Below are positions 33,927 to 40,718 of a DNA stretch of 64,000 nt, in pieces. Position 1 is the first letter of the stretch. Each line of letters begins with the position of its first letter. The DNA is from the human T2T-CHM13v2.0 reference genome, Homo sapiens, in assembly GCF_009914755.1 (NCBI RefSeq), contig NC_060937.1; one strand, written 5' to 3'. The notes below the pieces were generated by a model that made no database searches, was not told where the DNA came from, and saw only the letters and a program-made list of their open reading frames with translations. The translations under genes were made by a program, and so were the position numbers.

Positions 33927-34190
33927 TGTATTAGTCCTTTCACACACTGTGAAAGGACTACCTGAGACTGCGTAATTTATAAAGGAAAGAGGTTTAATTG
34001 GTCTTACCCAAGACTGGATAATTTATAAAGGAAAGAGGTCTAATTGACTCACAGTTCCACATGGCTGGGGAGGCCTCAGGAAACTTATAGTCATGGCAGA
34101 AGGGGAAACAAATACATCCTTCTTCACATGGCAGCAGGAAGAAGTGCCAAGCAAAAAGGGGAAAACCCCCTTATAAAACCATCAGATTTC
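33927..34190 (-). mobile_element. THE1D-like MaLR LTR, first part (interrupted)
   Basis: tgtattagtcc...gactcacagttccacatggctggggaggcctcaggaaactta...ccccttataaaaccatcagat. Confidence 0.9.
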
Positions 34191-34298
34191 TGTATTTTTA
34201 AGTAGAGACAGGGTTTCACCATATTGGCCAGGCTGGTCTTGAACTCCTTACCTCAAGTGATCCACTCGCCTTGGCCTCCCAAATTGCTGGGATTACAG
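34191..34298 (-). mobile_element. Alu left monomer, inverted, inside the L1 TSD
   Basis: tgtatttttaagtagagacagggtttcacc...gctgggattacag is the reverse complement of Alu positions ~23-130. Confidence 0.92.
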
Positions 34299-34299
34299 C

Positions 34300-34446
34300 C
34301 ACACATCTGTAATCCCAGCTACTCAGGAGGCTGAAGCAGGAGAATCGCTTGAAACTGGGAGGCCAAGGTTGCAGTGAGCCGAGATTGCACCACTACACTC
34401 CAGCCTGGGCAACAGAGCAAGACTCTGACTCAAAGAAAAAAAAGAG
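34300..34446 (+). mobile_element. Alu right monomer with A tail, sense, directly upstream of L1
   Basis: ctgtaatcccagctactcaggaggctga...gagcaagactctgactcaaagaaaaaaaag. Confidence 0.92.
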
Positions 34447-35459
34447 AAGGGGCATTCCAAGATGGTCAATAGGAACAGCTCCAGTCTGCAGCTCCCAGAG
34501 TGATCGACGCAGAAGACGGGTGATTTCTGCATTTCCAACTGAGGTACCTGGTTCATCTCACTGGGACTGGTTGGACAGTGGATGCAGCCCACAGTGAGCG
34601 AGCTGAAGCAGGGCAGAGCATCACCTCACCCAGGAAGTGCAAGGAGTCAGGGGATTTCCCTTTCCTAACCAAGAGAAGCTGTGACAGACTACCTGGAAAA
34701 ACGGGGCACTCCTGCCCAAATACTGTGCTTTTCCCAAGGTGATTCTCTCCCATGCCTGGCTCGGTGGGTCCCACACCCATGGAGTCTTGCTCACTGCTAG
34801 CACAGCAGTCTGAGATGGATCTGTGAGGTGGTAGCCTGGCTGGGGGAGGGGCGTCCACCATTGCTGAGGCTTGAGTAGGTAAACAAAGCAGCCAGGAAGC
34901 TCAAACTGGGTGCAGCCCATCACAGGTCAACAAGGCCTTCTGCCTCTAGACTCCACCTCTGTGGGCAAGGCATACCAGAACAAAAGGCAGCAGACAACTT
35001 CTGCAGACTTAAATGTCCCTGTCTGACAGCTCTGAAGAGAGCAGTGGTTCTCCCAGCACAGCATTTGAGCTCTGAGAATGGACAGACTGCCTCCTCAAGT
35101 GGGTCCCTGAATCTTGTGTAGCCTAACTGGGAGACACCTCCCAGTAGGGGCCAACAGACACCTCATATAGGCGGCTACCCCTCTGGGACAAAGCTTCCAA
35201 AGGAAGGATCAGGCAGCAATATTTGCTGTTCTGCAATATTTGCTGTTCTGTAGCCTCCACTGGTGATACCCAGGCAAACGGAGTCTGGAGTGGAACTCCA
35301 GCAAACTCCAACAGACCTGCAGCTGAGGGACCTGACTGTCAGAAGGAAAACTAACAAAGAGAAAGGAATAGCATCAACATCAACAAAAAGTTCATCTACA
35401 CAAAACCCCCTCTGTAGGACACCAACATCAGAGACCAAAGGTAGATAAAAATCACAAAG

Positions 35460-36468: not shown

Positions 36469-36530
36469 GACCATCGACGTTATGAAGAAACTGCATCAAT
36501 TAATGGGGAAAATTACCAGAAAACATCATA

Positions 36531-39500
36531 ATGACAGGAACAAATTCACACATAATATTAACCTTAAATGTAAATGGGCTAAATGCCCCAATTAAAAGAC
36601 ACAGACTGACAAATTGGATAAAGAGTCAAGATCCATCAGTGTGCTGTATTCAGGAGACCCATCTCATATGCAAAGATGCACATAGGCTCAAAATAAAGGG
36701 AAGATCTACCAAGCAAATGGAAAACAAGAAAAGTCAGGCATTGCAATCCTAGTCTCTGATAAAACAGACTTTAAACCAACAAAGATCAAAAGAGACAAAG
36801 AAGGTCATTACATAATGGTAAAGAGATCAATTCAACAAGAAGAGCTAACTATCCTAAATATATATGCACCCAATACAGGAGCACCCAGATTCATGAAGCA
36901 AGTCCATAGAGACCTACAAAGAGACTTAGACTCCCACAGAATAATGGGAGACTTTAACACCCCACTGTCAATATTAGACAGATCAGCAAGACAGAAGGTT
37001 AACAAGGATATCCAGGACCTGAACTCAGCTCTGCACCAAGCAGACCTAATAGACATCTACAGAACTCTCCACCCCAAATCAACAGAATATACATTCTTCT
37101 CAGCACGTCGCACTTATTCTAAAATTGACCACATAATTGGAAGTAAAGCACTCCTCAGCCAATGGAAAAGAACAGAAATCACAACAAACGGTCTCTCAGA
37201 CCACAGTGCAATCAAATTAGAACTCAGGATTAAGAAACTCACTCAAAACCTCACAACTACATGGAAACTGAACAACTTGCTCCTGAATGACTACTGGGTA
37301 AATGACGAAATGAAGGCAGAAGTAAAGATGTTCTTTGAAACCAATGAGAACAAAGACACAATGTACCAGAATCTCTGGGACACATTTAAAGTAGTGTGTT
37401 GTGGGAAATTTATAGCACTAAATGCCCACAAAAGAAAGCAGGGAAGATCTAAAATCGACAGCCCAACATCACAATTAAAAGAACTAGAGAAGCAAAAGCA
37501 AACAAATTCAAAAGCTAGCAGAAGGCAAGCAATAACTAAGATCAGAGCAGAACTGAAAGAGATAGACACACAAAAAACCCTCCAAAAAAAAAAAATGAAT
37601 CCAGTAGCTGGTTTTTTGAAAAACAAACAAAAAATCAACAAAGTTGATAGACTGCTAGTAAGACTAATGAAGAAAAGAGAGAAGAATCAAATAGGTGCAA
37701 TAAAAAAATGATAAAGGGGATATCACCACTGCTTCCACAGAAATACAAACTACCATCAGAGAATACTATAAACACCTCTATGCAAATAAACTAGAAAATC
37801 TAGAAGAAATGGATAAATTCCTCGACACATACACCCTCCCAAGACGAAACTAGGAAGAAGTTGAATCTCTGAACAGACCAATAACAAGTTCTGAAATTGA
37901 GGCAATAATTAATAGCCTACCAACCAAAAAAAAGTCCAGGACCAGATGGATTCACAGCCGAATTCTACCAGAGGTACAAAGAGGAGCTGGTACCATTCCT
38001 TCTGAAACTATTCCAATCAGTAGAAAAAGACGGAATCCTCCCTGATTTTATGAGGCCAACATCATCCTGATACCAAAGCCTGGCAGAGCACAACAAAAAA
38101 AGAGAATTTTAGACCAATATCCCTGATGAACATCAATGCAAAAATTGTCAATAAAATACTGGCAAACCAAATCCAGCAGCACATCAAAAAGCTTATCCAC
38201 CATGATCAAGTAGGCTTCATCCCTGTGATGCAAGGCTGGTTCAACATATGCAAATCAATAAACATAATCCATTACACAAACAGAACCACAACAAAAACCA
38301 CATGATTATCTCAATAGATGCAGAAAAGGCCTTTGACAAAATTCAACAGCATTTCATGCTAAAAACTCTCAATAAACTAGGTATTGATGGAATGTATCTC
38401 AAAACAATAAGAGCTATTTATGACAAACCCACAGCCAGTATCATACTGAATGGGCGAAAACTGGAAGCATTCCCTTTGAAAACCATCACAACACAAAGAT
38501 GCCCTCTCTCACCACTCCTATTCAACATAGTGTTGGAAGTTCTGGCCAGGGCAATCAGGAAAGAGAAAGAAATAAAGGGTATTCAATTAGGAAAAGAGGA
38601 AGTCAAATTGTCCCTGTTTGCAGATGACATGATTGTATATTTAGAAAACCCCATCATCTCAGCCCCAAATCTCAAGCTGATGTACAACTTCAGCAAAGTC
38701 TCAGGATATAAAATGAATGTGCAAAAGTCACAAGCATTCCTATACACTATTAACAGACAAACGGAGCCAAATCATGAGTGAACTCCCATTCACAACTGCT
38801 ACAAACAGAATAAAATACCTAGGAATCCAACTTACAAGGGATGTGAAGGACCTCTTCAAGGAGAACTACAAACCACTGCTCAAGGAAATAAAAGGACACA
38901 AACAAATGGAAGAATATTCCATGCTCATGGATAGGAAGAATCAATATTGTGAAAATGGCCTTACTGCCCAAAGTAATTTATAGATTCAATGCCATCCCCA
39001 TAAAGCTACCAATGACTTTCTTCACAGAAATGGAAAAAAACACTTTAAAGTTCATATGGAACCAAAAAAGAGTCCACATTGCCAAGACAATCCTAAGCAA
39101 AAAGAACAAAGCTGGAGGCGTCACGCTACCTGACTTCAAACTATACTACAAGGCTACAGTAAACAAAATACCATGGTACTGGTACCAAAACAGAGATATA
39201 GACCAATGGAACAAAACAGAGGCCTCAGAAATAACGCCATACATCTACAACCATCTGATCTTTGACAAACCTGACAAAAACAAGCAATGGGGAAAGGATT
39301 CCCTATTTAATAAACAGTACTGGGGAAACTGGCTAGCCATATGTAGAAAGCTGAAACTGGATCCCTTCCTTACTCCTTATACAAAAATTAATTCAGGATG
39401 GATTAAAGACTTAAATGTTAGACCTAAAACCATAAAAACCCTGAAAAAAACTTAGGCAATACCATTCAGTACATGGGCATGGGCAAGGACTTCGTGACTA

Positions 39501-40333
39501 AAACACCGAAAGCAATGGCAACAAAAGCCAAAATTGACAAATGGAATCTAATTAAACTAAAGAGCTTCTGCACAGCAAAAGAAACTACCATCAGAGTGAA
39601 CAGGCAACCTACAGAATGGGAGAAAAATTTTGCAATCTACCCAGCTGACAAAGGGCTAATATCCAGAATCTACAAAGAACTCAAATTTACAAGAAAAAAA
39701 CAAACAACCCCATCAAAAAGTGGGCAAAGGATATGAACAGACAATTCTCAAAAGAAGACATTTATGCAGCCAAAAGACACATGAAAAAATGCTCATCATC
39801 ATTGGTCAGAGAAATGCACATCAAAACCACAGTGAGATACCATCTCACACCAGTTAGAATGGCAATCATTTAAAAAGTCAGGAAACAACAGGTGCTGGAG
39901 AGGATGTGGAGAAAAAGGAACACTTTTACACTGTTGGTGGGACTGTAAATTAGTTCAACCATTGTGGAAGACAGTGTGGCGATTCCTCAAGGATCTAGAA
40001 CTAGAATTACCATTTGACCCAGCCATCCCATTACTGGATATATACCCAAAGGATTATAAATCACGCTCCTATAAAGACACATGCACACGTATGTTTATTG
40101 CAGCACTATTCACAATAGCAAAGACTTGGGACCAACCCAAATGTCCATCAATGATAGACTGGATTAAGAAAACGTGGCACACATACACTATGGAATACTA
40201 TGCAGCCACAAAAAAGGATGAGTTCATGTCCTTTGCAGGGACATGGATGAAGCTGGAAACCATCATTCTCAGCAAACTATCACAAGGACAGAAAACTAGA
40301 CACCTCATGTTCTCACTCATAGGTGGGAATTGA
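36531..40333 (+). pseudogene. L1 ORF2p remnant (EN, RT, C-terminal domain; frameshifted)
   Basis: Six-frame pieces with [39 protein letters not shown]. Confidence 0.92.
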
Positions 40334-40551
40334 ACAATGAGATCACTTGGACACAGGGCAGGGAACATCACACACCAGGGCCTGTCGTGGTGGGGGGTGC
40401 TGGGGGAGGGATAGCATTAGGAGAAATACCTAATGTAAATGATGAATTGATGTGTGCAGCAAACCAATGTATACCTATGCAGCAAACGTGCACTTCGCGC
40501 ACATGTATCCTAGAACTTAAAGTATAATAAAGAAAAAGAAAAAGAAAAAAA

Positions 40552-40718
40552 AAAGCCATCAGATTTCATGAGAACTCACTATTACAAGAACACCAGCATG
40601 GGGATAACTGCCCCCATGATTCAATTACCTCCCACTGGGTCCCTCCCATGATGCATGGAGATTATGGAAACTACAATTCAAGATGAGATTTGGGTGGGGA
40701 CATAGAGAAACCATATCA
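40552..40718 (-). mobile_element. THE1D-like LTR, second part
   Basis: ccatcagatttcatgagaactcact...acaattcaagatgagatttgggtggggac...aaccatatca completes the LTR begun at 33927. Confidence 0.9.

What the first reader, a model, noticed from the sequence alone, without database searches (positions are those of the whole stretch)
34175..40567. Full-length L1PA6 inserted together with an upstream, half-inverted Alu: 5' transduction plus twin priming
Seen: the THE1D LTR is split by a 16-bp TSD (aaaaccatcagatttc 34175-34190 / aaagccatcagatttc 40552-40567). It encloses, in order, an Alu left monomer in antisense (34191-34298), the Alu right monomer and A tail in sense (34300-34446), and a complete L1 from its first bases to poly(A). 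No separate Alu TSD is visible. The inverted piece starts at the Alu middle linker and runs back toward the Alu 5' end, about 20 nt are lost at the breakpoint, and the TSD end (atttc|tgtattttt) mimics the linker complement (atttt|tgtattttt). Established: this geometry is the signature of twin priming in L1 retrotransposition. Inference: the template RNA began upstream of the source L1 (external promoter, reading through an Alu), so this is an uncommon 5'-transduced and 5'-inverted insertion that keeps an entire L1 and tags its source locus.
Basis: partly seen in the sequence, partly recalled or inferred. Interest (0 to 1): 0.8.

Follow-up and report, generated by a model that had tools for sequence, protein, structure and literature searches.

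The report
Half-inverted Alu ahead of old L1
A rare half-flipped Alu sits directly in front of a complete, long-dead L1 inside one duplicated target site, and the sequence fits two ordinary successive insertions at least as well as the single exotic event first proposed.

Summary
A 16-bp target-site duplication (15 of 16 identical) in a THE1-type LTR encloses three parts. First comes an antisense Alu left arm, then a sense Alu right arm with a 12-nt A tail, then a ~6.1-kb L1 with poly(A). The Alu part has exact twin-priming geometry.

The single-event reading with 5' transduction has no positive support. No source or sibling locus was found. The locus is absent from the published catalogue of Alu/L1 chimeras and 5' transductions.

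Two Alu-only insertions elsewhere in this genome have the same geometry. Their inverted strand is primed at the same spot of the Alu linker, and each has its own TSD and no L1. Full-length L1s directly behind sense Alu tails are common: 70 exact-anchor loci.

A nested model fits without strain. A rare twin-primed Alu inserted first and owns the 16-bp TSD. The L1 later entered its A tail. A candidate inner TSD matches 12 of 12, but chance alone gives this about half the time.

Alu and L1 ages are indistinguishable, at about 5% each.

My odds:
- two events: ~0.6
- Alu-RNA/L1-RNA chimera with twin priming: ~0.2

Orthologous primate loci would decide. Interest is modest.

The parts
33959..34174 (+). 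Left part of the THE1-type (MaLR) LTR that was the target. The start follows NCBI's repeat mask and the left LTR boundary was not mapped.
   Evidence: Positions 34100-34190 align to 11 other THE1-type LTR copies of the same genome. The 'THE1D' label itself was not tested because no repeat library is on hand.
34175..34190 (+). Left copy of the 16-bp target-site duplication, AAAACCATCAGATTTC.
   Evidence: D17. A single copy is present in 10 of 11 other LTR copies. The EN-type site is TTTT/AT on the bottom strand.
34191..34298 (-). Antisense Alu left arm, about Alu position 125 back to 22/24. This is the internally primed (inverted) cDNA.
   Evidence: MAFFT alignment with 8 window Alus. Rfam Metazoa_SRP on the minus strand at 34203-34319, E 1.2e-8.
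34299..34431 (+). Sense Alu right arm, about Alu position 146/148 to the body end. AluS-like by eye.
   Evidence: Rfam Metazoa_SRP on the plus strand at 34286-34433, E 1.7e-8.
34432..34443 (+). Alu A tail AAAGAAAAAAAA. Under the nested model this is the left copy of the L1's own TSD.
   Evidence: An exact 12-nt copy lies at 40541-40552. Chance expectation is about 0.50 (1291 of 2600 placements of 3 G in 26 A/G letters).
34444..40528 (+). Full-length L1 of the older L1PA type, with broken ORFs. It runs from GAGAAGGGGCATTCCAAGATGG to AATAAA. The 5' boundary is uncertain within 34444-34449.
   Evidence: The 5' end aligns with 19 other full-length L1 5' ends. Pfam Exo_endo_phos_2 at 36815-37711 and RVT_1 at 38248-38781. 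The longest ORF is 298 aa. The 'L1PA6' label was not tested.
40529..40551 (+). A-rich tail AAAGAAAAAGAAAAAGAAAAAAA... Under the nested model it holds the L1 poly(A) (40529-40540) followed by the right copy of the inner TSD (40541-40552).
40552..40567 (+). Right copy of the 16-bp target-site duplication, AAAGCCATCAGATTTC.
   Evidence: D17. The LTR continues ATGAGAACTCAC... as in the other copies.
40568..40720 (+). Right part of the THE1-type LTR.
   Evidence: Positions 40552-40700 were aligned to the 11 other LTR copies and match 10 of them. The end is approximate.

Best explanation
Two successive L1-driven insertions, nested at one spot.

Step 1. An AluS-type RNA was inserted into the THE1 LTR at a TTTT/AT site by target-primed reverse transcription with twin priming. 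The bottom-strand cDNA started in the A tail and stopped near Alu position 147. The cleaved top strand (…GATTTC-3') primed a second cDNA in the mid A-rich linker and copied the left arm back to about position 23. Joining the two cDNAs left an antisense left arm, a sense right arm, a short A tail and the 16-bp TSD.

Step 2. Within at most a few million years, a full-length L1 inserted in the same orientation at the start of that A tail. The T run on the bottom strand makes this a favoured endonuclease and priming site. The L1 duplicated about 12 nt of tail as its own TSD.

Shown: the anatomy, the reality of the outer TSD, the existence of Alu-only look-alikes, and the frequency of L1 behind Alu tails.

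Inferred: the order and the separateness of the two events.
For: 1. Alu-only precedents exist. The pattern TGGGATTACAG-N(0-30)-CTGTAATCCCA occurs at 68 loci, the window included. I looked at 18 of the 67 other loci: 15, and 3 more picked for their junction strings. Two of these 18, L068 and L075, are 5'-inverted Alus with the same geometry. The inverted cDNA starts at the same linker spot, (TG)TATTTTTAGTAGAGA. It ends 11-14 nt from the Alu 5' end, and the sense arm resumes at about position 134. Each has its own TSD right after its own A tail and no L1 within 900 nt.

2. L1 behind an Alu tail is common. 70 loci carry CCAGCCTGGG 35-65 nt upstream of the L1 5' anchor, with 0 in the control. The genome holds 3,644 L1 5' anchors of a 26-nt form. 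With a 370-nt query, all 39 non-self scored hits were intact sense Alu + tail + full-length L1 5' end (40 of 8,741 candidates scored).

3. The nested model needs nothing unusual. The left tail piece is 12 nt, which is TSD-sized, and has an exact copy after a 12-nt L1 poly(A).

4. No source or sibling was found for a transduced junction.

5. The locus is absent from the 452 Alu/LINE-1 chimeras (Table S4) and the 17 5' transductions (Table S5) of Law & Burns 2026, PMC13174262. I read all chr13 rows of Table S4 and none lies between 56.89 and 66.45 Mb. Table S5 has no chr13 insertion. Their pipeline recovers 76% of curated chimeras.

6. A single event would need a non-inverted cDNA of ~6.2 kb. 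The published germline median is 571 bp, with breakpoints 'across the 3' end' (PMC12016303, section read).
Against: A twin-primed Alu is itself very rare. Kojima 2010 (PMC2912911) found 1 among about 5,555 human/chimp-specific Alus. PMC12016303 found 1 of 5,936 germline Alus. From these rates I roughly expect only ~0.03 such nested loci per genome (range 0.003-0.17), which is no larger than my equally rough expectation for a single event.

The inner TSD is low-complexity and expected by chance about half the time, so it supports nothing.

The right-hand A-rich stretch is short, about 23-26 nt, to hold an L1 tail plus an inner TSD plus the tail remainder.

Alu and L1 show no resolvable age gap. 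The CpG-masked branch is 4.9-5.9% over 194 sites for the Alu and 5.1% over 1,282 sites for the L1.

The catalogue argument rests on my own estimate of the hg38 position, about chr13:59.59 Mb.
Confidence: 0.6

Rival explanations
1. Single event from two RNAs: an Alu/LINE-1 chimeric insertion with twin priming. The bottom-strand cDNA copied the whole L1 RNA, then switched template onto the A tail of an Alu RNA and copied its right arm. Alternatively the two RNAs were already joined. The top strand had already been cleaved during the long L1 synthesis. It primed in the linker of the same Alu RNA and copied the left arm. One 16-bp TSD then belongs to everything.
For: One clean 16-bp TSD with a canonical TTTT/AT site encloses everything.

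Alu/LINE-1 chimeras are a described class. Law & Burns 2026 (sections and Table S4 part 11 read) list 452 loci, some with full-length L1 and some with antisense Alu fragments. They attribute antisense pieces to twin priming on a second RNA.

The ages of the Alu and the L1 are indistinguishable. The Alu is S-type and so plausibly active at the time, though that rests on a recalled family chronology.

The inverted strand stops near the Alu RNA 5' end, as in the Alu-only cases.

The long L1 synthesis gives time for top-strand cleavage. That could lift the otherwise 0.02% rate of Alu twin priming.
Against: The locus is not in the catalogue, although the pipeline recovers 76% of known chimeras.

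No second example of a half-inverted Alu plus L1 was found. 0 of 39 non-self hits and 0 of the 18 other palindrome-junction loci examined are followed by an L1.

The tail between the Alu and the L1 is only 12 nt.

The catalogue itself cannot separate true chimeras from nested insertions within one time bin, so the true number of such chimeras with full-length L1 is unknown.
Confidence: 0.2
2. A source L1 lay directly behind a sense Alu. A transcript started upstream (5' transduction), and that single RNA was inserted with twin priming in the transduced Alu.
For: The geometry is compatible with it.

Full-length L1s directly behind sense Alus exist in numbers and could serve as such sources.

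5' transductions with near-full-length L1 are documented: 17 in hg38 (Law & Burns 2026, section read).
Against: No source or sibling was found:
- The 30-nt junction pattern with up to 3 mismatches gave only the window itself.
- The 22-nt pattern gave 40 matches, against 18 in the control. I examined 34 of them. Apart from the window itself, only one is an L1 5' end, and it has no Alu in front.
- With the 65-nt junction query, all 32 candidates were scored. Three span the junction and none is related. Two Alu-tail look-alikes have no L1.
- The 19 full-span loci and the best 370-nt hit (C5:133691014) share none of the private Alu variants.

The inverted cDNA ends inside the Alu and carries no upstream flank, so nothing shows an RNA longer than the Alu at its 5' end.

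The model needs three uncommon things at once: an upstream start, a ~6.2-kb first cDNA, and priming in the last 130 nt of the RNA.

These searches are not exhaustive. Pairwise divergence at this age is about 12-15%, so they might miss roughly half of true siblings.
Confidence: 0.05
3. Post-insertional DNA rearrangement. A normal Alu, with or without the L1, was inserted. Its left arm was later inverted by a replication or repair error between the two homologous arms.
For: The two arms form an imperfect inverted repeat (26-nt arms, 77% complementary, I1).
Against: The inverted block would need one breakpoint exactly at the TSD/Alu border and the other in the linker. It would also need to lose about 20 nt and about 23 nt.

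The same linker start point recurs in two independent loci that abut their own TSDs. That points to priming at insertion, not to a later accident.
Confidence: 0.03

Closest known systems
Twin priming (5' inversion) in L1-mediated retrotransposition. Ostertag & Kazazian 2001 is recalled and seen only as reference 61. Rates come from Kojima 2010 (PMC2912911) and from PMC12016303.
   Same: The inverted 5' segment abuts the left TSD. It lies just upstream of the sense segment in the template. There is a small gap at the break, a poly(A) at the other end, and a 16-bp TSD at an EN-type site.
   Different: The break lies in an Alu, where twin priming is reported in only 1 of about 5,555 and 1 of 5,936 insertions. 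Strict microhomology at the 5' junction is 0 nt, whereas only 4.6% of 5'-inverted L1s lack it.
Alu-only 5'-inverted insertions in this genome: L068 (G000:C1:13457778) and L075 (G000:C3:98959885).
   Same: The priming spot in the mid linker is the same. The inverted arm ends a few nt short of the Alu 5' end, and the sense arm resumes at the start of the right arm.
   Different: In those two the TSD follows the Alu's own A tail and there is no L1. They lose only about 8 nt at the break, against about 20 here.
Alu/LINE-1 chimeric insertions and 5' transductions (Law & Burns 2026, PMC13174262).
   Same: An Alu lies directly 5' of an L1 within one pair of TSDs. Some catalogue members carry full-length L1 or antisense Alu pieces.
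   Different: This locus is not listed. I did not see a listed case with one Alu split into an antisense and a sense half, but only 1 of 15 parts of Table S4 was read. Contemporaneous arrival is untested here.
Ordinary nested insertion of L1 into an Alu poly(A) tail.
   Same: The orientation is the same. The L1 5' end lies a TSD-length after the Alu body, and the flanks are A-rich. At least 70 exact-anchor loci show this arrangement. Insertions are reported to cluster at Alu positions 260-310 (PMC12016303).
   Different: Here the host Alu is itself a rare twin-primed copy.

Membership tests
Twin-primed L1-mediated insertion (applies to the Alu part) | Flanking TSD of 7-20 bp at an L1 endonuclease-type site | tested here: met
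   The TSD matches 15 of 16. A single copy is present in 10 of 11 other LTR copies. The bottom strand reads TTTT/AT.
Twin-primed L1-mediated insertion (applies to the Alu part) | The inverted 5' segment abuts the left TSD and maps just upstream of the sense segment, with a small gap or overlap | tested here: met
   The antisense piece covers about positions 125 back to 22/24. The sense piece runs from about 146/148. The gap is about 20 nt.
Twin-primed L1-mediated insertion (applies to the Alu part) | Microhomology between the top-strand primer end and the template at the 5' junction | tested here: inconclusive
   ATTT matches the linker complement, but the terminal C of the TSD does not. Strict microhomology is 0 nt.
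L1 5' transduction | The extra 5' sequence maps to the flank of a source or sibling L1 elsewhere | tested here: not met
   No locus shares the junction or the private Alu variants. The searches are not exhaustive.
L1 5' transduction | The extra sequence and the L1 arrived together, so the empty site lacks both | not testable with these tools
   No other primate genome is on hand.
Alu/LINE-1 chimeric insertion (Law & Burns 2026) | The Alu and the L1 are contemporaneous in multi-species alignments | tested here: inconclusive
   The locus is absent from Table S4. All chr13 rows were read and none lies between 56.89 and 66.45 Mb. The pipeline recovers 76% of curated cases.
Alu/LINE-1 chimeric insertion (Law & Burns 2026) | The Alu and the L1 are of matching age | tested here: met
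   CpG-masked star-tree branches are 4.9-5.9% for the Alu (194 sites) and 5.1% for the L1 (1,282 sites). The test has low power and fits the nested model as well.
Nested insertion: L1 into the A tail of an earlier Alu | The L1 has its own TSD made of tail sequence | tested here: inconclusive
   The 12-mer at 34432-34443 has an exact copy at 40541-40552. Chance expectation is about 0.50.
Nested insertion: L1 into the A tail of an earlier Alu | The host element can exist on its own with the same structure | tested here: met
   L068 and L075.
Full-length L1 (L1PA group) | A canonical 5' end, EN and RT domains, a 3' AATAAA plus poly(A), and a length of about 6 kb | tested here: met
   The subfamily label L1PA6 was not tested because no repeat library is on hand.

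The most novel reading that the evidence does not exclude
One retrotransposition event mobilised a complete L1 together with an Alu at its 5' end, either as an RNA chimera or as a read-through RNA. The top-strand primer caught the Alu linker more than 6 kb from the poly(A). The result would be a twin-primed insertion that keeps an entire L1. It would show that the first cDNA can run ~6.2 kb before resolution and that Alu RNA can be copied from both sides within an L1 cis event.
Probability: 0.27. Interest if true: 0.55.

Novelty: new member of a known kind. Interest (0 to 1): 0.3.

Why it matters
If the nested reading holds, the locus is ordinary genome archaeology with one small point of interest. 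Twin-primed Alus are rare, at about 0.02% of insertions. The three examples seen here all prime at the same spot of the mid A-rich linker and stop short of the Alu 5' end. This suggests a stereotyped mechanism. I ran no literature search for that point, and it is not mentioned in the passages I read.

If the single-event reading holds, the locus would be an unusual example for the new class of Alu/LINE-1 chimeras. It would also show how far from the poly(A) twin priming can act.

The locus also carries a caution. A shared outer TSD does not prove a single event when the inner element sits in the outer element's poly(A) tail.

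Tried and rejected

Phrase searches such as 'chr13 5959' and 'SINE SINE' returned nothing because a space does not match ':' or ','. I therefore read the chr13 block of Table S4 directly.

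Only 1 of 15 parts of Table S4 was read. I cannot say whether the catalogue holds another split, half-inverted Alu.

They would have classified the remaining loci listed. Smaller requests went through. In total, 18 of the 67 other loci were examined, and the three picked were not twin-primed Alus.

The age test cannot separate the models, and neither can the inner-TSD test.

An L1-first model was rejected. In that model the Alu would insert later at the L1 5' border, but no TSD flanks 34191-34443 on its own.

The base-rate odds in this report are my own rough arithmetic from published rates, the counts above, and a recalled Alu copy number of about 1.2 million.

Full report
**What is there**

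Reading 33700-34900 and 40200-41300 confirms the layout. AAAACCATCAGATTTC lies at 34175-34190 and AAAGCCATCAGATTTC at 40552-40567, matching 15 of 16 (repeat finder family D17).

To test whether this is a true target duplication, I fetched 11 other copies of the same LTR from the window's own genome and aligned them with both flanks. Ten of the 11 read ...TATAAAACCATCAGAT(C/T)T(C/T)(A/G)TGAGAACTCAC... straight through with one copy of the 16-mer. The eleventh (L057) is broken at that very place by another insertion. The window's left flank stops at ...GATTTC, and the right flank restarts at AAAGCCATCAGATTTC and continues ATGAGAAC. The TSD is therefore real. Its start gives TTTT/AT on the bottom strand, an L1 endonuclease-type site.

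**The Alu pieces**

The alignment used eight full Alus of the window.
- 34191-34298 is an antisense left arm. It begins in the mid A-rich linker (...CTACTTAAAAATACA on the sense strand) and runs back to about Alu position 22/24.
- 34299-34431 is a sense right arm, from about position 146/148 to the body end.
- About 20-21 nt between them are missing, as are the first ~23 nt of the Alu.

Rfam sees a 7SL-like arm on each strand (E about 1e-8, below gathering score).

The tail is only AAAGAAAAAAAA, 34432-34443. The next bases, GAGAAGGGGCATTCCAAGATGG, look like the L1's own 5' end when set beside other full-length 5' ends.

The L1 runs ~6.1 kb to AATAAA plus an A-rich tail. It has endonuclease and reverse-transcriptase remnants (Pfam) and broken frames.

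The geometry of the Alu part is that of twin priming. ATTT matches, but the last base of the TSD does not, so strict microhomology is zero.

**Is it one event with 5' transduction?**

I did so in several ways.

- A 161-nt junction query (40 of 1,856 candidates scored) gave 23 non-self hits spanning the junction. I inspected 19 of them. All have different tails and none shares the window Alu's private variants.
- A 30-nt junction pattern with up to 3 mismatches matched only the window.
- A 22-nt pattern gave 40 matches against 18 in the reversed control. I examined 34 of them. Apart from the window itself, only one is an L1 5' end, and it has no Alu in front. Six were not examined.
- A 65-nt junction query had all 32 candidates scored. 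Three span the junction, and these are loci already seen and unrelated. Two Alu-tail look-alikes have no L1.
- A 370-nt query covering both Alu halves and the L1 start (40 of 8,741 candidates scored) returned 39 non-self loci. Every one is an intact sense Alu + tail + full-length L1, and none has an inverted arm.
- The best of these, C5:133691014, shares none of eight private variants.

No source or sibling was found. At about 12-15% pairwise divergence these searches could miss a true sibling perhaps half the time, so this is absence of support and not disproof.

**What the comparisons add**

First, full-length L1s directly behind sense Alu tails are common. 70 loci carry an Alu word 35-65 nt before the L1 5' anchor, with 0 in the control. 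The genome holds 3,644 anchors of a 26-nt form. That is about 2% before correcting for decayed anchors. An outer TSD shared by an Alu and an L1 is exactly what a nested insertion into the Alu tail produces. 'No separate Alu TSD' therefore does not argue for one event.

Second, the half-inverted Alu exists on its own. The palindromic junction pattern occurs at 68 loci, the window included. I looked at 18 of the 67 others. Two of them, L068 and L075, are Alu-only insertions in which:
- the inverted cDNA starts at the same linker spot;
- it ends 11-14 nt from the Alu 5' end;
- the sense arm resumes at about position 134;
- the element's own TSD follows its own A tail;
- no L1 lies within 900 nt.

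In the window the inverted arm stops about 23 nt from the Alu 5' end. This fits a template ending at Alu position 1 better than an RNA that began further upstream. No non-Alu flank is carried.

**Published rates**

- 5'-inverted Alus were 1 of about 5,555 lineage-specific Alus, against 639 of 2,068 L1s (Kojima 2010, PMC2912911; passages read).
- They were 1 of 5,936 germline Alus, against 165 of 897 germline L1s (PMC12016303; passages and section 8 read).
- In germline twin-primed L1s the non-inverted cDNA has a median of 571 bp, and breakpoints lie across the 3' end of L1. A single event here needs ~6.2 kb.
- Law & Burns 2026 (PMC13174262; sections 10, 12, 13, 19 and 34 and supplements read) catalogue 452 Alu/LINE-1 chimeras and 17 5' transductions in hg38. 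Their pipeline recovers 76% of curated chimeras.
- I read all chr13 rows of their Table S4. None lies between 56.89 and 66.45 Mb, and I place this locus at about 59.59 Mb. Table S5 has no chr13 insertion.

**Tests that could not decide**

Age. Star-tree branches at CpG-masked sites are 5.1% for the L1 5' 1.4 kb, measured against ten same-type copies over 1,282 sites. They are 4.9-5.9% for the Alu, measured against 20 to 87 harvested copies over 194 sites. No age gap is resolvable, which fits every model.

Inner TSD. The 12-nt tail has an exact copy at 40541-40552, right after a 12-nt L1 poly(A). This gives a tidy nested model. However, 1,291 of 2,600 random placements of three G in 26 A/G letters give the same match.

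**Weighing**

The following is my own rough arithmetic, using a recalled Alu copy number of about 1.2 million.

| Model | Ingredients | Expected loci per genome |
|---|---|---|
| Nested, two events | ~200 twin-primed Alus genome-wide × ~1.7e-4 chance that a given Alu carries a full-length L1 in its tail | ~0.03 |
| Single event | 3-30 true Alu + full-length-L1 co-insertions × ~0.002 chance of priming in the Alu linker instead of finishing colinear | 0.006-0.06 |

These are comparable. The catalogue absence shifts the odds about 2.5-fold toward two events. Within the single-event family, the 5' transduction version is further penalised by the missing sibling and by the inverted arm ending inside the Alu.

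My odds are:
- nested two-step: 0.6
- RNA-level Alu/L1 chimera with twin priming: 0.2
- 5' transduction with twin priming: 0.05
- later DNA rearrangement: 0.03
- the rest unassigned

**Verdict**

The claim of an uncommon 5'-transduced insertion that tags its source is not supported by anything found here. Primate orthologues would settle the matter in one look.

The side observation is that three independent twin-primed Alus use the same linker priming site. It is small but may be worth a census.

Noticed in passing
L068 (G000:C1:13457778-13457826 and flanks); L075 (G000:C3:98959885-98959936 and flanks): Two Alu-only 5'-inverted insertions. Their inverted cDNA begins at the same point of the Alu mid A-rich linker as in the window, and each has its own TSD right after its own A tail. 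This suggests a stereotyped priming site for the rare Alu twin priming.
   Followed up: partly
L057 (G000:C11:21448050-21448201 and flanks): Another THE1-type LTR copy is interrupted at the homologous position. It reads ...AAAACCATCAGATTTTTTTTT followed by what looks like an antisense L1 3' end. This would be an independent hit at the same LTR site.
   Followed up: no
window 33959-34000 and 34005-34046: A 42-nt direct duplication (88% identical, 46 nt apart) lies in the 5' part of the THE1-type LTR (repeat finder D1).
   Followed up: no
window 35216-35249: An exact 17-nt tandem duplication, GCAATATTTGCTGTTCT x2, lies inside the L1 (repeat finder D11).
   Followed up: no
genome-wide: Among the 70 loci with an Alu word 35-65 nt before a full-length L1 5' end, a few show the L1 behind the Alu mid linker (...CTACTAAAAATACAAAAATTAG + L1) rather than behind the 3' tail. 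Table S4 of PMC13174262 also lists several short 'TSDs' that are Alu-internal words such as AGCACTTTG and CATGCCTGTA. Part of that catalogue may therefore be nested insertions rather than chimeras.
   Followed up: no
window 34259-34411: Weak Rfam matches to the miRNA precursor families mir-3135 (34352-34411, minus strand) and MIR7526 (34259-34346, plus strand) fall on the Alu arms, far below gathering scores. They are probably just Alu-derived likeness.
   Followed up: no
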